The notes: generated by a model from the letters alone, not told the origin. 64,000 bases of DNA from a virus (IMGVR_UViG_3300042319_002356:26768-90767), one strand, 5' to 3'. Positions 41,144 through 59,571 are shown, counted from the stretch's first letter. Translations and numbers: made by a program.

Positions 41144-41509
41144 ATGGAAAAGGAATTTGTACCCTACGAGTTGGCGGTTAAACTCAAAGCACTTGGATTT
41201 GATGAAGAATGTTTGAGTTATTATTTTAATAAACAACTATCATTTGGTTCTAAAACTTCTTATGGTGAAGTAGTAGAAGCACCACTCTTCCAACAAGCAT
41301 TCCGTTGGTTTAGAGAGAAGTACGAGTTATTTCATTCAACTAACTACCAAGATGATAATTCTGGTTCAGGTAGTTTTGATTACGAGATTCTTGATAAAAG
41401 AGGGAAACATCAACAAGATGATGACTCTCCTGAATTTGATACCTATGAAGAAGCAGAACTTGCTTGTCTTACCAAGTTAATTGAAATTGTTGAACAAACT
41501 AAAAGATAA
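41144..41509 (+). CDS. Hypothetical phage protein
   Basis: APLFQQAFRWFREK...TYEEAE pattern. Confidence 0.7.
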   Translation: MEKEFVPYELAVKLKALGFDEECLSYYFNKQLSFGSKTSYGEVVEAPLFQQAFRWFREKYELFHSTNYQDDNSGSGSFDYEILDKRGKHQQDDDSPEFDTYEEAELACLTKLIEIVEQTKR

Positions 41510-41573
41510 TTAAAATAAAATTTGGACTGACAGGAACTTTGATATATATTTGTAATCACAAACCGATAAGAAT

Positions 41574-41870
41574 ATGACACAGAAACAACAAGATGCTCTT
41601 GACAACATAATGGATAACTTTGACTTTGACCAAGTTCATAAGGTAATGGTATTCCTTAATTGGAAATGGGCGAATAGTAATGGTGGCCTTGAGGTACCTG
41701 AAAAATATGAATTAAGAAGTGAAGCAAGACGACTTTTGAAAATGGCGATTGAGGAAAAGACGACTGTATCAACTGGCGGATTCTTAGCTGAATACATTGA
41801 TGAAGATGGTGGATGGATGGATTTGAAGTTTGTTGTATCAGATTGGGATGAAGAGGTAAAAAATGGGTAA
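41574..41870 (+). CDS. Hypothetical protein
   Basis: 98 aa ORF. Confidence 0.65.
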   Translation: MTQKQQDALDNIMDNFDFDQVHKVMVFLNWKWANSNGGLEVPEKYELRSEARRLLKMAIEEKTTVSTGGFLAEYIDEDGGWMDLKFVVSDWDEEVKNG

Positions 41871-42057
41871 GGTATGACAAATAAAGAAAAAATTGTAACC
41901 TTTAGTTGTAGTAAATCTGTTCATATATACGGACCAAAAAGTGGATTACTACCAAGGTCTCCGTATAGAACTCACCCAACCATTGATGAAGCGAAAAAGT
42001 TTTTAACTGAAAGGGAAGGGGATTATGAAATAAAATTAGTATATTTGTAAAATAATT

Positions 42058-42177
42058 AGTCAGGTAATGCGTAATGTGGAAACGGCATCACATCCTGAAA
42101 ACACCACGGTCCATAACCATTTGGACGCGAGAAGTATAAAGGTTGCATTGTTGGGGGTTCGAATCCTCTCCTGACTA
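42058..42177 (+). ncRNA. tRNA-like RNA A (acceptor stem and T arm, no canonical anticodon arm)
   Basis: AGTCAGG/CCTGACT-A; GGGGG-TTCGAAT-CCTCT. Confidence 0.75.
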
Positions 42178-42334
42178 CACGGTCTGGCTCATCACCAGAT
42201 AGTATGTCCAATACGATGAGAAATGGTATGATAACCATAGGGAACTTCTGATAGGGAAACGCTCTATCCGGTCTAACTAGCCGCGGGAAATATCAAAGAG
42301 GATGCAAAGAACAACGTGCTCTCGTAGTTAACAT

Positions 42335-42443
42335 AGTCAGGTGGCGGAATTGGTTTGCCTTAGCAGTAGCAGACACTACACAAAAATTGGCCGAATGTCA
42401 ACGATACCAAAAGCTAATACAGGTTCGAATCCTGTCCTGACTA
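42335..42443 (+). ncRNA. tRNA-like RNA B
   Basis: AGTCAGG-TGGCGGAATTGGT...ACAGG-TTCGAAT-CCTGT-CCTGACT-A. Confidence 0.75.
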
Positions 42444-42506
42444 CTAACGGGAAACGCTCACTAACCCTTATAATAGTGTGATGACAGCTCGGAAAGACGG
42501 CAAAAT

Positions 42507-42594
42507 AGTCAGGTGGTGGAATTGGTTGCCATACAAACTTGGAGGGTTACTTACTTTAAGTCCCTGAATACAGGTTCGAATCCTGTCCTGACTA
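42507..42594 (+). ncRNA. tRNA-like RNA C
   Basis: Same acceptor stem and T arm as B, different interior. Confidence 0.75.
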
Positions 42595-42957
42595 CAAAAA
42601 TTAAAATTAAAAAACAAAAAGTATGATTGGGATTCTATTGTTTATATTATTGGGTACGTGGGTGATAATAACGGAAGGAAACATTTTTTTAAGAAAAAAA
42701 GATGATGATGGTGACCACTATCACCAATCAATGGATTGATAAAGGTAATGAGTAAGAGATACTCAACGGTCTTCGAATCAAGACCTAAAGAATGATTCCG
42801 CAGAATGTCTACGGCGCGAGTGGGACATCGTGGGATAAAGGGACTGACACAATCCCTCCCAGTAGTGTTGGATGTTTTTAACGGGTAAGACCAGCAGGTT
42901 TTTAAGAAATAGAAAACCGATATATCTACTCACCTATAATCTCAGGGTGGGGAACTT

Positions 42958-43033
42958 GCCCCCTTGGCGGAATAGGCAGACGCACATCGCTTAGAACGAT
43001 GTTTTAGTGAGAGTTCGAGTCTCTCAGGGGGTA
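42958..43033 (+). tRNA. tRNA-Leu(TAG) with a short variable region
   Basis: CT-TAG-AA loop; only 7 nt between the anticodon and T stems. Confidence 0.85.
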
Positions 43034-43061
43034 CAAATCCCATAATAGTATATTTATGATT

Positions 43062-43685
43062 ATGAAAAATATATTATTAGTTCTTTTAACATTTTGGGTA
43101 TCCATTTCTTTTTCCCAATCTTATGATGTGGTTATTAAAAAACAAAACTACACTTCTTACTTTGAATATGATTATGTAAATCCTACGGTTGTGACTTATA
43201 AGTTATATCACGGAGGTGGTGATTGTAAGAGAGACAAGTTCTATTTTAAAAACGACGAGTCATTTAAGACTGCGACAGACCAAGATTATTCTAAATCAGG
43301 TTATGACAAGGGACATATGGCAAATGCTGAAGACTTTGCTTATGATTGTACTTTGGATGAATTAACATTCAGATATTATAATTGTGTTCCACAACACCCA
43401 AGAATGAATAGAGGTCCTTGGAAGAAAGTTGAAACTGAAATTAGAAAGTGGAGTCAGGATAAAGAGTTGTTAGTTATATGTATTAATGTATTTGGTGATA
43501 AGGACTTACCTAATACAAATGTTGCCATCCCAACGGAGTGTATTAAACTTGTTTATGACTATAAAACAAAGAAGCCAATTGCGGGTTATGTCTTCACAAA
43601 CACGGCAAATCCTGTAATGACTCAGATGACACCTGACGAAATTGTTAAAAAGTATTCTATTACAATTAAGACCTTCTTAAATTAA
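43062..43685 (+). CDS. Exported DNA/RNA non-specific endonuclease (NucA/Serratia-type)
   Basis: Signal peptide; SGYDKGHM and NCVPQ...NRGPW motifs. Confidence 0.88.
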   Translation: MKNILLVLLTFWVSISFSQSYDVVIKKQNYTSYFEYDYVNPTVVTYKLYHGGGDCKRDKFYFKNDESFKTATDQDYSKSGYDKGHMANAEDFAYDCTLDELTFRYYNCVPQHPRMNRGPWKKVETEIRKWSQDKELLVICINVFGDKDLPNTNVAIPTECIKLVYDYKTKKPIAGYVFTNTANPVMTQMTPDEIVKKYSITIKTFLN

Positions 43686-43730
43686 ACAACTATTAATTAT
43701 TGGTTTATGTCTTAGTTGATATTTATCAGC

Positions 43731-45308
43731 ATGAGACACCTATTCTTCCTCCTATTATTAATCCCCAATCTTATACTTGCACAATGTGCTGGGATACCGT
43801 CATTCACATTAAATCCCGCTCCTGTTAATGGTAATTACGAACCAGGGACTGTTGTAACTATGTGTTACACTTTAAATGGTTGGGATACTTCATTTGGTTC
43901 AAATTGGTTGGAGGGGTTTAGTATTAACTTAGGGCCTGGTTGGGTATCTTATACACCTATATCAGCACCTGATGATTGTGGAGGAGCAACACCACCACAA
44001 GGATGGTTATGGTTGGAAAGTGTTACCAATAATGCGGGGACATTAACTGTTGGACCGGGTTACTTTTACGAGGGACCACAAGGACCTACTGATGGAAATC
44101 CGGGAAATGATTGGGGTGACTTTGGAACAAATTGTTTATGGACTTTTTGTGTCCAATTACAAGTATCCGACCAATGTGACCCACTTTCTTTATTGATTGA
44201 AGTTACACCTTATGCTGACGGAACGATGGGAAGTTGGGGAAATGAATCTTGTTTTGATGGACCATTTCAGGTATTCAATGGGGCAATCGCAGGAGGAGAT
44301 GTTGATACGTCACCAATAACTTATGTGACGGATTCAGTTTGTGTTGGACTTATGCAACAATATTCAGTCGTTAATACACCTGGGTCAACATATGAATGGA
44401 GTGCTAATGGTGGATATTTTGGTATTGACCAAAATGGTTCAAATGTTGCGGATGTATATTGGGGAGCTTGGCCTGGAACTTATACATTATATGTTCAGGA
44501 AACAACTGCTGAAGGATGTGTTGGGGATGAAATAACTTTGGATATTACGGTTGTTGATACCTTGATTACATTTGGACAACCAAGAACAGGTCTTTGTTTG
44601 GGAGATTCAACAAAACTATTTGCGTCACCATCAGGGGGATTTTGGGCCGGTGAGAATTTGGTTGGTAATACATTCACAGGTTATAATTCAGGAACCTATC
44701 ACCCAACTTATTTTGTCAACATACACGGATGTCCTGTTGCAGATTCTGTTGAAGTGTTTGTTAGAGAACCATTTACATCACCAATAATTTATACGACATT
44801 ACTAGATATTGATTTATGTCAAAATTCACCTGAACAATTTTATTATGTAAATGAAGAAGTTGGTGTTGAATATACTTGGCATGTTGATGGTATCTTACAA
44901 GAAGATACTGATTTTGAATTATATCAGAATTGGTATGATACAACAATGTTACATACAATAACAGTTTATGGGACGGACACCATTGGATGTGAAAGTGAAC
45001 TCGGTTATATATTAATTGATGTTGAAGCATGTCACAGATTATTTGTTCCAATATCATTCACACCAAATGGTGATGGGTACAATGATGCATTTAAAATTGT
45101 TGGTGAATCAATATATGAACCACATATGAAAATATTCAATAAAGATGGTATGGTTGTGTATGAAATCAAATCAATAACTCAAACTTGGAATGGAAATGAT
45201 GGAACAGGATATTTTTGTCCGAATGGAGTTTATAACTGGGTTATGACTTATAGGGACGATAGAGGGATTGGTCACACACAAAAAGGTCATATTGTTTTGA
45301 TTCGTTAA
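43731..45308 (+). CDS. Secreted beta-rich protein with a T9SS type-B (gliding-motility-associated/CHU_C) CTD
   Basis: Signal peptide; C-terminal FVPISFTPNGDGYNDAF...WNG...GVY.W...GHIVLIR. Confidence 0.88.
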   Translation: MRHLFFLLLLIPNLILAQCAGIPSFTLNPAPVNGNYEPGTVVTMCYTLNGWDTSFGSNWLEGFSINLGPGWVSYTPISAPDDCGGATPPQGWLWLESVTNNAGTLTVGPGYFYEGPQGPTDGNPGNDWGDFGTNCLWTFCVQLQVSDQCDPLSLLIEVTPYADGTMGSWGNESCFDGPFQVFNGAIAGGDVDTSPITYVTDSVCVGLMQQYSVVNTPGSTYEWSANGGYFGIDQNGSNVADVYWGAWPGTYTLYVQETTAEGCVGDEITLDITVVDTLITFGQPRTGLCLGDSTKLFASPSGGFWAGENLVGNTFTGYNSGTYHPTYFVNIHGCPVADSVEVFVREPFTSPIIYTTLLDIDLCQNSPEQFYYVNEEVGVEYTWHVDGILQEDTDFELYQNWYDTTMLHTITVYGTDTIGCESELGYILIDVEACHRLFVPISFTPNGDGYNDAFKIVGESIYEPHMKIFNKDGMVVYEIKSITQTWNGNDGTGYFCPNGVYNWVMTYRDDRGIGHTQKGHIVLIR

Positions 45309-45340
45309 GATTTTTGCTTTATCTTTGTATTCACAAACAA

Positions 45341-45425
45341 GGTCGGGTGCTTGAGTGGTTGAAAAGAGCGGTCTGCAAAACCGTTTGACGAAAGTCACAC
45401 GTCAGTTCGAATCTGACCCCGACCT
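45341..45425 (+). tRNA. tRNA-Cys(GCA) with a long variable arm
   Basis: CT-GCA-AA loop, U73, TGAC-GAAA-GTCA variable arm. Confidence 0.85.
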
Positions 45426-46366
45426 CAAAATTTTTCCCATTATGTCTTGTTGTAAAGAATGTCCGTATAAGGTTGATAACAACCACAATAGAAAGTTAAG
45501 AGAATTTACTGAAAGGACTGGTAGAAAACACACTTGTCATATGGTGAATCCAAAACTATGGGACACAAGTAATGAAAAAGAAATTTGTAAAAATTTTGTG
45601 TAACTGAAAACTTTATATTATCTTTGTCCTATGAAAGTAAAATCAGAATTTGACCAGTTGATTGACAAGAAAAATGATGTTAGAGACCAATTCATTCTTG
45701 TTGATAAAATCCTTAAAGAAACACGTCAGTTACAAGATAAGTCTCGTGGAAAAGGAATCTTTTGGAGAGACCTTGACACATATTATGGTTGTGAAAAGAG
45801 AATTGAGCAACTAAATGGACTTAGAGATTCTCTTTCAGAGTATTATGAATACATTAGTGACCGAATTGAAGAAATAGAAACCAATAAATAAAAAAATATA
45901 TGAATAACTTTTTAGGTGGCGGGTTAGGTTTTTTCTTACAAACAGCAATGGACGAGATGTTCATTTATGAGAACAATCGTGAACAATGGAAAGAATCTAT
46001 CAAACGAAAGTTCCGTGAATCCCGTAATCTTCCACGAAAGAAGAAAAAACAAGTTAGAAAAGAACTTCAACTTGATTGGAGAATTGCAAATTGGGACCCT
46101 TTTAAATTTTGATAATTGAAAATTTCAATTTATATTTGTAGAAATAATTAAACGATATGAAAAACAAAGTTTGGCACAAAGTGGAGATTAGTACTGAAGA
46201 ACAAAAAGTTGAAGTTTACCCAACAGAAACATTCGACGGGATTATTGTTGAAACTAAGGAGTGGGATGGTAGTAGTAGTCCTCGTTTGTATCTTAACAAA
46301 GATGAAATGGAGTTTTTGATTACCAAGATGCAAGAGATGATGAAATACGTGAAGGAATAAAAGAAT

Positions 46367-46470
46367 ACTCAGGTGGCGGAAGCGAGACGAATGCATTAGT
46401 CCGATAGACAGACGCTAGGGTAACTATCCGAGTCAGAAATGACATGAAGGTGCAAGTCCTTCTCTGAGTA
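46367..46470 (+). ncRNA. tRNA-like RNA D
   Basis: ACTCAGG/TCTGAGT-A (compensatory 2:71 change); GAAGG-TGCAAGT-CCTTC. Confidence 0.65.
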
Positions 46471-46540
46471 CAAACCAACCAAGGGCAATACGGGTTCATA
46501 CCTGTGGAGCAAGGAGACGGCCAGGAAAGACTGGCAACAT

Positions 46541-46607
46541 AGTCAGGTAACTTAATTGGCAAAGCTCCTAACAAGGAAGATTGCAGGTTCAAATCCTGTC
46601 CTGACTA
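46541..46607 (+). ncRNA. tRNA-like RNA E (67 nt, truncated anticodon arm)
   Basis: AGTCAGG...TCCT-AACA-AGGA...GCAGG-TTCAAAT-CCTGT-CCTGACT-A. Confidence 0.75.
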
Positions 46608-55547: not shown

Positions 55548-55833
55548 GGTCGGATGATGAAATAGGTAGACATGCAAGACTTTAACTATTTGAGTGCTAG
55601 AGGGGAAACTCTCTAAGTAGAACTCCGTAAATTCGGTGAACCCTTTAATCTGGGAACCCCGAGCCAAGCCCGAAAGGGAAGGTGTAGAGACTAGACACGG
55701 AGAACCTAAATCAGAAATGATATGGTTAAGGTATAGTCCAGACTACAAACCGAAAGGGTAGCGAAAGCTATAGTAGTAAGAAAATCTTGTGGACATTGTG
55801 TCCGTGCGGGTTCGATTCCCGCTCCGACTACCA
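55548..55833 (+). tRNA. tRNA-Leu(TAA) interrupted by a group I intron
   Basis: Exons 55548-55582 and 55781-55833 reconstitute CAAGA-CTTAAAA-TCTTG, a long variable arm and CCA. Confidence 0.9.
55583..55780 (+). ncRNA. Group I self-splicing intron (IC3-like, 198 nt)
   Basis: P AAATTCGGTGAA, Q CCCGAGCCAA, R GTAGAGACTAGA, S AAGGTATAGTCC; U.G pair at the 5' splice site; terminal G. Confidence 0.92.
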
Positions 55834-58710: not shown

Positions 58711-59571
58711 ATGGAATTTGAAAAAGTAATTAATACCGTAATCAACGGAGACTGTATTGAAGTAATGAAGGAAATGCCGGAGGGGGTGGTGGATTTGATT
58801 GTAACATCACCCCCTTATGGAGTAAACATCGCTTATGATGTCCATGATGATGATATGGAGATAAATGAGTATTTGGAGTTTACTCGTAAATGGATGACTG
58901 AGGCCTATAAAGTTCTAAAAGATGATGGAAGAATTGCTTTGAACATTCCATATGAGATTAACCGACAAGCTAAAGGTGGAAGGATTTTCTTTGTATCCGA
59001 AGTTTATCAGGTTATGAAGGAGATTGGGTTTAAGTTCTTTGGTATCGTTGACTTGGAAGAAGATAGTCCCCATAGAAGTAAGACAACCGCTTGGGGTAGT
59101 TGGATGAGTCCATCAAGTCCGTATATCTATAACCCAAAGGAATGTATGGTTCTTGCTTATAAGAAACACCACATCAAGAAAGTTAAGGGTGAACCACAAT
59201 GGAAAGGTGAACCAACCGTGACTGAAGAGGGTAAAACCAAGATTGTTTATCAGGAACAAGATAAGAAAGATTTTATGGAATTGGTATTTGGGCAATGGAA
59301 GTATTTGAATGACTCAAGACCAATGACCAAGGCAACTTTCAGTATGGATATTCCAACCAAAGCAATTAAGATATTGTCATATAAGAATGATGTTGTGTTG
59401 GACCCATTTAATGGTAGTGGAACAAGTTGTGTGGCGGCAGAAATTTTGGATAGAAGATGGATTGGTATTGAACTTTCTGAAAATTATGCTAATATCGCTA
59501 AAGAACGAATACAAGGTTTTGTTGACCAAAAAAAACAACAGAAATTACAATTTGAAAACGGGGGTCAATAA
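58711..59571 (+). CDS. N4-C/N6-A DNA methyltransferase (beta class)
   Basis: TSPPY and DPFNGSGT motifs. Confidence 0.92.
   Translation: MEFEKVINTVINGDCIEVMKEMPEGVVDLIVTSPPYGVNIAYDVHDDDMEINEYLEFTRKWMTEAYKVLKDDGRIALNIPYEINRQAKGGRIFFVSEVYQVMKEIGFKFFGIVDLEEDSPHRSKTTAWGSWMSPSSPYIYNPKECMVLAYKKHHIKKVKGEPQWKGEPTVTEEGKTKIVYQEQDKKDFMELVFGQWKYLNDSRPMTKATFSMDIPTKAIKILSYKNDVVLDPFNGSGTSCVAAEILDRRWIGIELSENYANIAKERIQGFVDQKKQQKLQFENGGQ

What the first reader, a model, noticed from the sequence alone, without database searches (positions are those of the whole stretch)
42058..46607. Family of five anticodon-less tRNA-like RNAs with a constant acceptor/T-arm and a hypervariable interior
Elements at 42058, 42335, 42507, 46367 and 46541 (67-120 nt) share (T)AGTCAGG...T-arm-CCTGACT-A. 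Copy D has a compensatory 2:71 change, and B and C keep a Leu-like TGG(C/T)GGAATTGGT D-loop start. None has a canonical 7-nt anticodon loop. The preceding T can extend the acceptor stem to 8 bp. A conserved top half over unrelated interiors argues against simple decay. Inference: decoys for tRNA-targeting defence enzymes or uncharged-tRNA sensors, aminoacylatable mimics (LeuRS relies on A73 and not on the anticodon), or RNase P/Z punctuation that releases the neighbouring ncRNAs.
Basis: partly seen in the sequence, partly recalled or inferred. Interest (0 to 1): 0.75.

Follow-up and report, generated by a model that had tools for sequence, protein, structure and literature searches.

The report
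Anticodon-less tRNA-Leu-framed phage RNAs
This lake-water phage carries five small genes for RNAs that keep the outer frame of a leucine tRNA but hold unrelated folded inserts where the codon-reading arm should be; they belong to a large, phage-only, uncatalogued family whose inserts differ between closely related phages and whose job is unknown.

Summary
All five elements (42058-42177, 42335-42443, 42507-42594, 46367-46470, 46541-46607, + strand) match Rfam's tRNA model end to end at 21.8-41.3 bits, but the anticodon arm is replaced. They are not decaying or intron-split tRNAs. The same acceptor/T-arm frame occurs about 200 times in at least 137 uncultured viral contigs and in no isolate bacterial genome. 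It is always co-oriented with real tRNA genes and shares their flanking signature (T at -1, C after A73). D-stems covary. Inserts are mostly unrelated: 167 of 211 are singletons. Insert types A and D recur in other phages with compensatory changes. Related phages with similar flanks carry different inserts at the same site, including this window's B site. Element A differs from relatives by a 45-nt hairpin module. The best reading is that these are tRNA-Leu(UAA)-derived frames matured by the tRNA machinery into stable L-shaped RNAs that display exchangeable RNA payloads. Decoy and processing-punctuation roles are not excluded. The closest known RNAs are the unexplained 'tRNA-like stable RNAs' of phages T5 (RNA1, RNA2) and T4 (species 1). 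This scan has flagged the same family at least ten times on other DNA. Function remains inferred, and expression evidence is weak.

The parts
42040..42047 (+). TATATTTG, a Bacteroidota-type -7 promoter box 10 nt upstream of element A. It is the candidate start of an A-B-C transcription unit.
   Evidence: Similar boxes lie 12-17 nt upstream of the real tRNA-Cys (45320), tRNA-Tyr (48064) and tRNA-Met (55428) genes. This is a consensus match only.
42058..42177 (+). Element A, long form of a conserved subtype. It has a 7-bp acceptor stem, a 5-bp central helix P2 (AUGCG/UGCAU) enclosing hairpin P3 and a short P4, then a T arm (GGGGG/CCUCU) and A73. There is no cloverleaf D arm.
   Evidence: RF00005 21.8 bits; R1 42 bits. 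The 5' 19-mer occurs in 26 viral contigs, giving 21 distinct sequences. Consensus folds show compensatory changes in P3, in the insert hairpin and in the T stem.
42096..42140 (+). A 45-nt hairpin module inserted in the P4 loop of element A. It is absent from the short forms of close relatives.
   Evidence: L160 and L153 share about 88% identity with window 41497-42341, yet carry an 83-nt short form with GATAAAAA at this point. The module's stem shows a UA to CG compensatory change. It was seen only inside A-type frames.
42178..42334 (+). The A-B spacer, a separate conserved structured RNA candidate lying between two frames.
   Evidence: About 88% identical in L153 and L160, with compensatory changes (CTGG..CCAG to CTGA..TCAG; ATGGT..ACCAT to TAGGT..ACCTA). 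Contigs from RNA libraries cover parts of it.
42335..42443 (+). Element B. It has the AGUCAGG/CCUGACU acceptor, a Leu-type D-arm start, a 5-bp UUAGC/GCUAA stem enclosing a 43-nt insert, the T arm CAGG-UUCGAAU-CCUG and A73.
   Evidence: RF00005 31.2 bits; R1 69.1 bits; fold. The orthologous site in relative L153 (215-293, minus strand) holds an unrelated 79-nt element, and L160 has none there.
42507..42594 (+). Element C. It has the same frame, a 4-bp D stem (GUGG/CCAU) with an AAUUGGUUG loop, and a 36-nt insert that can form an AGGG..CCCU/ACUU..AAGU hairpin.
   Evidence: RF00005 38.3 bits; R1 73.7 bits. ARAGORN's Ser-GGA call rests on a 3-bp stem.
46367..46470 (+). Element D, a conserved subtype. 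It has acceptor ACUCAGG/UCUGAGU (C2:G71, G7.U66), a GCG/CGC D stem with a covarying hairpin inserted in the D loop, a GUCA-GAAA-UGAC hairpin, and a T arm with loop UGCAAGU.
   Evidence: RF00005 21.9 bits; R1 30 bits. Six further viral contigs carry it, and five complete copies were folded with the window's. The consensus fold has 3 pairs with compensatory changes. A bona fide tRNA-Leu(UAA) with an ACUCAGG acceptor stem (3' strand CCUGAGU, so G7-C66) is at L069:10981-11066.
46541..46607 (+). Element E, the minimal form (67 nt). It has the frame, a class-I-like 3-bp D arm, and a 4-bp stem capped by the tetraloop AACA where the anticodon arm should be.
   Evidence: RF00005 41.3 bits, with only 7 nt where the model expects 13; fold; R1 50.5 bits.

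Best explanation
The five elements are genes for tRNA-framed small RNAs. The frame descends from a phage tRNA-Leu(UAA). It comprises the acceptor stem AGUCAGG/CCUGACU, A73, a T arm and usually a D arm that can build the tRNA elbow. The frame lets the host tRNA machinery cut the RNA out of tRNA-operon or mRNA transcripts: RNase P at the 5' end, then 3' trimming and CCA completion after the encoded C74. The product would be a stable L-shaped RNA. The anticodon and variable region are replaced by a payload of about 20-150 nt, different in each copy, so the RNA cannot decode. The payload is the specific functional part, a structured RNA that binds some host or phage factor. Payloads differ between related phages at fixed sites, which suggests host-specific or arms-race selection. 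Members with a Leu-type D arm (B, C) may also be leucylated by host LeuRS. Shown here: anatomy, family size, phage restriction, co-orientation and shared flanks with tRNA genes, covariation, and different payloads at the same site. Inferred: transcription, processing, stability, charging and what the payloads do.
For: - **tRNA likeness.** Full-length tRNA-model matches with the anticodon arm replaced.
- **Family size.** A census found 211 framed copies in 137 loci plus the window. The frame model gave 190 hits in 99 loci plus the window at E<=1e-5, and 72 more in 42 further loci at E<=1e-3, a minority of them real tRNAs.
- **Phage restriction.** Only 17 hits in one genome each of 185,579 species, all on MAG contigs.
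- **Frame pairing.** 97.9% of cells are paired, and D-stem pairs covary (CG to UA in 20 sequences); 0 of 500 shuffles reach the observed values.
- **Link to tRNA genes.** The nearest real tRNA is on the same strand in 101 of 102 cases, and none of 45 multi-copy loci has mixed strands. Flanking signature: T at -1 in 66% of elements against 70% of real tRNA genes; C after position 73 in 100% against 99%; CAA is the commonest trailer in both.
- **No decoding.** ARAGORN of 211 as tRNAs, spread over 28 different anticodons.
- **Payloads.** 167 of 211 are singletons with no shared 6-mer. They are collectively more folded than shuffles: mean z -0.49, p 5e-7.
- **Payload conservation.** Types A and D are conserved with compensatory changes. 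27 of 37 same-payload pairs show no flank homology.
- **Different payloads at one site.** L008:2889-3018 and L030:266-345 have flanks 99.6-100% identical over 250 nt on each side but unrelated inserts. L050, L076, L095, L104, L107 and L113 hold five payloads at one site. The window's B site differs in L153, and A's module is absent in L153 and L160.
- **RNA libraries.** Three of four metatranscriptome assemblies laid hold frame-bearing contigs; the joints and in-between letters of other payloads come from two of them.
Against: - No payload function is identified. Rfam finds nothing in the payloads.
- No enrichment of sense or antisense matches outside the elements.
- No recurrent neighbouring protein: the most widespread family is in 16 of 138 sources searched (137 loci plus the window).
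- The structure signal of the payloads is modest.
- Minimal members such as E carry almost no payload, which fits a frame-only function better.
- The RNA evidence is contigs only. It shows no ends, strand or CCA, and DNA carry-over cannot be excluded.
- The apparent invariance of the T arm is partly an ascertainment effect, because loci were fetched by an exact 23-mer. In A-type copies fetched by their 5' end, the T stem varies and covaries.
Confidence: 0.5

Rival explanations
1. Frame-only mimic or decoy. The acceptor/T-arm/elbow is the functional part. It would titrate or engage a tRNA-binding factor, such as a tRNA-directed defence nuclease or sensor, LeuRS, EF-Tu, the CCA-adding enzyme or RNase P. 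The interior only has to avoid decoding or cleavage.
For: The acceptor stem sequence is nearly fixed: 143 of 211 copies have exactly AGTCAGG/CCTGACT, and most variants are wobble-compatible. Minimal members exist with a tetraloop-capped stem (E; others 67-76 nt). Leu identity features are retained in 43% of frames. Several copies per genome would raise the dose.
Against: Payload types are conserved across phages with unrelated flanks, with compensatory changes. Paralogues within one genome carry different structured inserts rather than one cheap minimal form. D arms differ among subtypes (A, D, E), so no single synthetase-type identity set is shared.
Confidence: 0.2
2. Cis-acting processing punctuation, like plant mitochondrial t-elements or mitochondrial tRNA punctuation. 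RNase P and 3' endonuclease cuts at the tRNA-like fold would define the ends of neighbouring mRNAs and spacer ncRNAs. The released tRNA-like piece would be a by-product.
For: A starts 8 nt after the stop of ORF 41874-42050. D starts 7 nt after ORF 46157-46360. C ends 28 nt before ORF 42623. The elements share the strand and flanking signature of tRNA genes. The spacer between A and B is a conserved structured RNA that such cuts would release. No + strand intrinsic terminator was found in the region.
Against: One element per junction would suffice, yet copies stand in tandem: three within 540 nt here and about nine CM hits within about 3.2 kb in L008. This role does not explain conserved, covarying inserts or the turnover of inserts at fixed sites.
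Confidence: 0.15
3. Non-functional relics or selfish repeats. These would be dead copies of tRNA-Leu genes, perhaps derived from intron-bearing ones, that spread and recombine through their constant ends without benefit to the phage.
For: No function is shown. Different interiors at the same site could result from neutral recombination among paralogues or alleles. Short A-type forms keep relic UUAG or UUAA letters at the former anticodon-loop position. The same contig has a tRNA-Leu(UAA) split by a group I intron.
Against: Frame helices are 97.9% paired with covariation. The flanking processing signature is kept. Subtypes are kept across phages whose flanks have diverged beyond detection. Copies are strictly co-oriented with tRNA genes. 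The family is present in at least 137 viral contigs.
Confidence: 0.1
4. Intron-bearing tRNAs. The interiors would be introns whose removal restores a decoding tRNA.
For: A genuine example of an intron in a tRNA-Leu(UAA) lies nearby at 55548-55830. Insert positions coincide roughly with the anticodon region.
Against: With introns allowed, ARAGORN assigns scattered anticodons to 115 of 211 copies. No group I intron model matches the elements in the window or in 21 loci that hold most of the longest elements. Inserts of 20-150 nt are shorter than the one group I intron seen here (198 nt). In many copies the D arm or anticodon stem is itself replaced (A, D, E).
Confidence: 0.03

Closest known systems
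Phage T5 RNA1 and RNA2 (AY543070.1 30501-30644 and 32959-33083, annotated 'tRNA-like stable RNA with unknown functions')
   Same: They lie in the phage tRNA gene region on the tRNA strand. RNA1 has an acceptor-type stem (GGAAUA/UGUUCC), a Leu-type D arm (CCGG-AAUUGGUAGA-CGGG), a T arm, and about 80 nt in place of the anticodon arm. It matches RF00005 end to end at 24.0 bits, the same range as elements A and D. RNA2 ends in GCAGG-UUCGAAU-CCUGU, the same T arm as elements B, C and E up to one base. Their function is unknown.
   Different: The acceptor sequences differ, and there is no detectable sequence homology beyond the tRNA core: the frame model R1 gives 11.4 bits for RNA1 and 23.8 bits for a partial RNA2 match. 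The host is an enterobacterium. For T5, no family of copies with a shared frame and differing inserts has been described, as far as my searches reach.
Phage T4 species 1 RNA (rnaC, AF158101.6 70908-71046)
   Same: It is a stable small RNA of unknown function at the end of the T4 tRNA cluster. Its 3' ~93 nt has a T arm (CCGGG-UUCGAAU-CCCGG) and an acceptor-like pairing ending in A, followed by CAAA.
   Different: Only its 3' part is tRNA-like. It has no RF00005 match, only 17.5 bits to the tRNA-Sec model, and no R1 hit. No Leu-type D arm was noted.
Engineered tRNA scaffold for recombinant RNA expression (Ponchon and Dardel 2007; cited from my own knowledge)
   Same: The design principle is the same: the anticodon arm of a tRNA is replaced by an arbitrary structured RNA, while the rest recruits tRNA processing and gives stability.
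   Different: It is man-made and based on tRNA-Lys or tRNA-Met. It is a working analogy, not a family relationship.
tmRNA tRNA-like domain
   Same: It has an acceptor and T arm, with a large interior inserted between the D-region analogue and the T arm. Element A's topology (acceptor, central helix, T arm) resembles it.
   Different: There is no G3:U70 alanine identity pair, since 3:70 is U:A here. There is no Rfam tmRNA match over the elements, no pseudoknot or ORF architecture, and the elements are much smaller.
Plant mitochondrial t-elements (PMC1920247, title and abstract listed) and mascRNA (recalled from memory)
   Same: They are tRNA-like folds without decoding function, used as RNase P or RNase Z processing signals at transcript ends.
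   Different: They are organellar or eukaryotic, occur as single structures, and do not form a family with a constant frame and conserved exchangeable inserts.

Membership tests
Canonical decoding tRNA (Rfam RF00005) | 7-bp acceptor stem with a discriminator base | tested here: met
   All five elements. Family-wide, the acceptor helix is 99.6% paired.
Canonical decoding tRNA (Rfam RF00005) | T arm with a UUCRANY-type T loop | tested here: met
   A, B, C and E have UUCGAAU or UUCAAAU. D has UGCAAGU, which departs at position 55.
Canonical decoding tRNA (Rfam RF00005) | 5-bp anticodon stem with a 7-nt loop (U33, anticodon, purine 37) | tested here: not met
   Rfam alignments skip or replace this arm. 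ARAGORN calls only C, on a 3-bp stem. Family-wide, 39 of 211 are called, with 28 different anticodons.
Canonical decoding tRNA (Rfam RF00005) | Score at or above the curated gathering score (29 bits) | tested here: inconclusive
   E 41.3, C 38.3 and B 31.2 bits pass. D 21.9 and A 21.8 bits fail.
tRNA gene split by a group I intron | Group I ribozyme core between two exon halves that restore an anticodon loop | tested here: not met
   No RF00028 match over any element in the window or in 21 related loci that hold most of the longest elements. A positive example in the same window at 55548-55830 scores 51.4 bits.
Phage 'tRNA-like stable RNAs' (T5 RNA1/RNA2 type) | Encoded within or beside the phage tRNA gene cluster, on the same strand | tested here: met
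   The window's elements lie among tRNA genes on the + strand. Family-wide, 101 of 102 share the strand of the nearest tRNA.
Phage 'tRNA-like stable RNAs' (T5 RNA1/RNA2 type) | Acceptor and T arm kept, with an enlarged interior lacking an anticodon arm | tested here: met
   for the window. for T5 RNA1 and RNA2.
Phage 'tRNA-like stable RNAs' (T5 RNA1/RNA2 type) | Accumulates as a discrete stable RNA in infected cells | not testable with these tools
   Only assembled contigs from RNA libraries were available. They show presence, not ends or abundance.
Phage 'tRNA-like stable RNAs' (T5 RNA1/RNA2 type) | Sequence homology to T5 RNA1 or RNA2 | tested here: inconclusive
   R1 scores 11.4 bits (RNA1) and 23.8 bits (RNA2, partial), no better than ordinary T5 tRNAs. 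The likeness is architectural.
tmRNA | Rfam tmRNA model match, G3:U70 pair, internal tag ORF with pseudoknots | tested here: not met
   No tmRNA hit over the elements. Pair 3:70 is U:A.
Substrate of LeuRS (E. coli-type tRNA-Leu identity set: A73, A14, A15:U48, G18G19; anticodon not used; from established knowledge) | Presence of the identity nucleotides | tested here: inconclusive
   Present in B and C and in 59 of 137 non-redundant frames. U8 is present in 132 of 137, and a pyrimidine at position 48 in 130 of 137. A, D and E lack the Leu-type D loop. The host's LeuRS rules are unknown, and charging was not testable.

The most novel reading that the evidence does not exclude
Phages keep a library of small structured RNAs (decoys, aptamers or guides against host defence or host regulators) mounted on one standard tRNA-Leu frame. 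The frame provides processing and stability. Its constant ends double as the junctions at which payloads are exchanged between phages. This would be a natural, cassette-based RNA counterpart of the engineered tRNA scaffold, under diversifying selection.
Probability: 0.2. Interest if true: 0.9.

Novelty: new variant of a known kind. Interest (0 to 1): 0.7.

Why it matters
Stable tRNA-like RNAs of T4 and T5 have, to my knowledge, gone unexplained since they were first described decades ago. This family shows that the type is widespread in uncultured phages. Here it uses one standard frame for hundreds of different inserts, and closely related phages differ in those inserts. That pattern points to a payload function under fast selection. 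It also gives concrete handles: conserved payload types A and D, minimal forms like E, and natural same-site variants. With these, the old question can be tested in cultivable systems. The family is absent from Rfam, and gene finders either miss it or mislabel it as odd tRNAs, which inflates or distorts phage tRNA counts. A natural tRNA scaffold would also interest RNA engineering.

Tried and rejected
- **Known phages.** A BLAST of the 5.2-kb region against 50,697 phage records found only two tRNA-Met matches. Element C alone found only 25-nt T-arm matches in Enterococcus phages. No cultured carrier of this exact frame was found at that sensitivity.
- **Rfam.** No family other than tRNA overlaps the elements or their inserts.
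- **Introns.** ARAGORN with introns allowed gives scattered anticodons. No group I model matches the elements in 21 loci that hold most of the longest ones.
- **Shared payload motif.** The best 6-mer occurs in 10 of 130 inserts.
- **Payload origin or targets.** 13-mer matches outside the elements are no commoner than for shuffled inserts, on either strand. One 15-nt perfect antisense match links B's insert to 59038-59052 inside ORF 58711-59571. I estimate chance at about 0.004 per insert, so this is a lead only.
- **Partner gene.** No neighbouring protein family recurs in more than 16 of 138 sources (137 loci plus the window). The top ones are DUF932, terminase and a metallophosphoesterase. 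No CCA-adding enzyme or Leu/Phe-transferase domain lies in the held contig, which is only about 31% of the genome.
- **Relatives found through the nearby endonuclease gene.** Three loci at 47-65% identity have no frame hits.
- **MITE with a TA duplication.** Considered because of the TA-GTCAGG...CCTGAC-TA symmetry. Rejected because the T arm, D arm, wobble-compatible variants and tRNA-type flanks indicate RNA-level constraint.
- **RNA runs.** Contigs cannot show ends or strand. Uncovered parts of the stretch are not evidence.
- **Literature.** Three full-text searches found no description of this family. One further search failed on a term that was too short.

Full report
**Setting.** The window is bases 26768-90767 of a single 90,767-base IMG/VR virus record, estimated to be 31% complete. 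It carries 17 ARAGORN-called tRNA genes, all on the + strand. It also has Bacteroidota-type TAnnTTTG promoter boxes. Lake-water metagenomes hold the region.

**Observation.** Rfam's tRNA model aligns to each over its full length:
- E: 41.3 bits
- C: 38.3 bits
- B: 31.2 bits
- D: 21.9 bits
- A: 21.8 bits

In every alignment the anticodon arm is skipped or replaced. The shared 22-nt T-loop/acceptor motif occurs four times against zero in shuffles. D has the compensatory C2:G71 pair. B and C begin with a Leu-type D arm. E has a 4-bp stem with a tetraloop in place of the anticodon arm. A covariance model of the frame (R1) finds these five and no further family member in the contig.

**A large phage family.**
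- It occurs in only 17 contigs among one genome each of 185,579 prokaryote species. All 17 are MAG contigs, mostly Bacteroidota, and none is from an isolate.
- In 137 loci plus the window I counted 211 copies with both frame halves. One 5-kb stretch has 7 by this census, and about nine by the model.
- R1 gives 190 hits at E<=1e-5 in 99 loci plus the window, and 72 more at E<=1e-3 in 42 further loci. A minority of these are real tRNAs.
- On the model-based alignment, 97.9% of frame cells pair and the D stem covaries (CG to UA in 20 sequences, GC to AU). Acceptor variants are mostly wobble-compatible. No shuffle of 500 reaches the observed values.

One caveat applies. The loci were fetched by an exact 3' 23-mer, so the apparent invariance of the T arm is partly ascertainment. 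In A-type copies fetched by their 5' end, the T stem varies and covaries.

**Treated like tRNA genes.**
- The nearest bona fide tRNA gene is on the same strand in 101 of 102 cases.
- None of 45 multi-copy loci mixes strands.
- The median distance to a real tRNA is about 400 nt.
- T at -1: 66% of elements, 70% of real tRNA genes.
- A at -2: 62% of elements, 57% of real tRNA genes.
- C after position 73: 100% of elements, 99% of real tRNA genes. CAA is the commonest trailer in both.

It is not a special 8-bp stem. Element A has a TATATTTG box 10 nt upstream, at a spacing like that before the real tRNA-Cys, tRNA-Tyr and tRNA-Met genes. D and E follow a 67-codon ORF without a box of their own.

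**Not decoding tRNAs, not intron-split.**
- ARAGORN of 211 copies as tRNAs, with 28 different anticodons.
- With introns allowed it, again with scattered anticodons.
- No group I intron model matches any element in the window or in 21 loci that hold most of the longest elements.
- Real tRNA-Leu(UAA/UAG) genes with normal anticodon arms sit in many of the same loci. One of them has an ACUCAGG acceptor stem like element D's, differing only at the 7:66 pair (L069:10981-11066).
- In this window a tRNA-Leu(UAA) split by a group I intron has the related acceptor GGUCGGA/UCCGACU.
- Short A-type forms keep UUAG or UUAA letters where the anticodon loop was.

The frame thus most likely descends from phage tRNA-Leu(UAA).

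**Interiors.**
- Of 211 interiors, 167 are singletons by BLAST clustering.
- No 6-mer is shared by more than 10 of 130.
- As a set they fold somewhat better than dinucleotide shuffles: mean z -0.49, n 117, p 5e-7.

They are not free-drifting filler:
- Element A belongs to a subtype found in 26 contigs (21 distinct sequences). Its consensus fold is a 7-bp acceptor, a 5-bp central helix, and a hairpin with UA to AU change. The long form adds a module hairpin with UA to CG change.
- Element D has orthologues in six contigs. They share a covarying hairpin inserted in the D loop and a covarying GUCA-GAAA-UGAC hairpin.
- Of 37 pairs from different loci with the same interior (most 77-100% identical), 27 have no detectable flank homology within 250 nt.

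**Different interiors at the same site.**
- L008:2889-3018 and L030:266-345 have flanks 99.6% and 100% identical over 250 nt on each side. They hold unrelated inserts, in elements of 130 and 80 nt. Both keep the same rare 3' acceptor variant, while L030's insert recurs in L020 on a normal frame.
- Six related phages, with flanks 88-96% identical, carry five unrelated inserts at one site. The D arms travel with the insert.
- The window's own locus shows the same pattern. Relatives L153 and L160 match 41497-42341 at about 88%. They carry a short form of A that lacks the 45-nt module. At B's site, L153 has an unrelated 79-nt element and L160 has none.

Two mechanisms remain open: recombination inside the frame, or allelic exchange through the flanks.

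**Expression.** Six RNA-library runs hold small shares of the region. Laying four of them shows many contigs that match the 5' and 3' frame with other letters in between. Their per-contig word depth is 28-137 in run X16, against 7-24 for contigs on neighbouring coding parts. These are assembled contigs from mixed phages. They show neither ends nor strand, and DNA carry-over cannot be excluded. I count this as a weak hint only.

**Function.** I found no recurrent partner protein, no known RNA family in the inserts, and no excess of complementary targets. The shape of the evidence is:
- a constant tRNA-type frame with tRNA-type flanks;
- payload types conserved with covariation;
- several different payloads per genome;
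- rapid payload turnover at fixed sites.

This fits best a frame that recruits tRNA maturation and gives stability to exchangeable RNA payloads (confidence 0.5). A frame-only decoy (0.2) fits the minimal members and the fixed acceptor sequence. Processing punctuation (0.15) fits the junction positions and the conserved spacer RNA. Relics or selfish repeats (0.1) and intron-bearing tRNAs (0.03) fit poorly. Leucylation is plausible only for the 43% of frames with a Leu-type D arm. That rests on the established anticodon-independence of E. coli LeuRS, not on any test here.

**Comparison with known RNAs.** T5 RNA1 has the same architecture: an acceptor-type stem, a Leu-type D arm, a T arm and an interior of about 80 nt. 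It scores 24.0 bits on RF00005. T5 RNA2 has essentially the same T arm (one base differs outside the CAGG/CCUG core). T4 species 1 RNA has a tRNA-like 3' part. All three are annotated as stable RNAs of unknown function. R1 does not link them by sequence. Three full-text searches found no description of the family, and it is not in Rfam. Earlier agents of this scan reported the same family on at least ten other genomes, with the same T5/T4 comparison and the cassette idea. I re-tested the T5 comparison and the same-site differences here, and both hold.

Noticed in passing
window 55548-55830 (+): A tRNA-Leu(UAA) gene split by a 198-nt group I intron at the classical U34|A35 site (RF00028, 51.4 bits, E 3.7e-12). 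The 5' exon is 55548-55582, the intron 55583-55780, and the 3' exon 55781-55830, followed by an encoded CCA. ARAGORN and the whole-window Rfam gathering scan both missed it.
   Followed up: partly
window 42745-42957 (+); also L174, L175, L178, L179 just downstream of D-type elements: A conserved non-coding module of about 200 nt (starting AATGAGTAAGAGATACTCA...) lies before tRNA-Leu(UAG) here. In other phages it directly follows a D-type element. RNA-library contigs of three to four runs cover 42762-42958 with few differences. No Rfam family matches.
   Followed up: no
window 42178-42334 (+): The spacer between elements A and B is about 88% conserved in L153 and L160, with compensatory changes in two hairpins. 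It is probably a separate small structured RNA.
   Followed up: partly
window 42372-42386 and 59038-59052: Element B's insert has a 15-nt perfect antisense match to the + strand inside ORF 58711-59571. I estimate chance at about 0.004 per insert. It is a possible target or a coincidence.
   Followed up: partly
L014:4124-4186 (+): A freshwater-1 RNA (RF02979) match at 70.1 bits, just under the 72-bit gathering score, lies inside a tRNA and frame array of a related viral contig.
   Followed up: no
L047:4975-5349 (-): A phage-encoded tmRNA (RF00023, 53.3 bits, E 3.8e-18) lies next to an array of more than 20 tRNA genes and a framed element.
   Followed up: no
L052:682-750, L117:5854-5926, L153:66-180 (-): Further anticodon-less tRNA-like elements use other acceptor sequences (AGCCAAG/CUUGGCU; CCACUG/CAGUGG). 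The frame studied here is therefore one of several.
   Followed up: no
window 43056-43685 (+): An ORF with a signal-peptide-like start and a DKGHMAN motif looks like a secreted DNA/RNA non-specific endonuclease. It lies between the two element clusters. Relatives at 47-65% identity lack nearby frames.
   Followed up: partly
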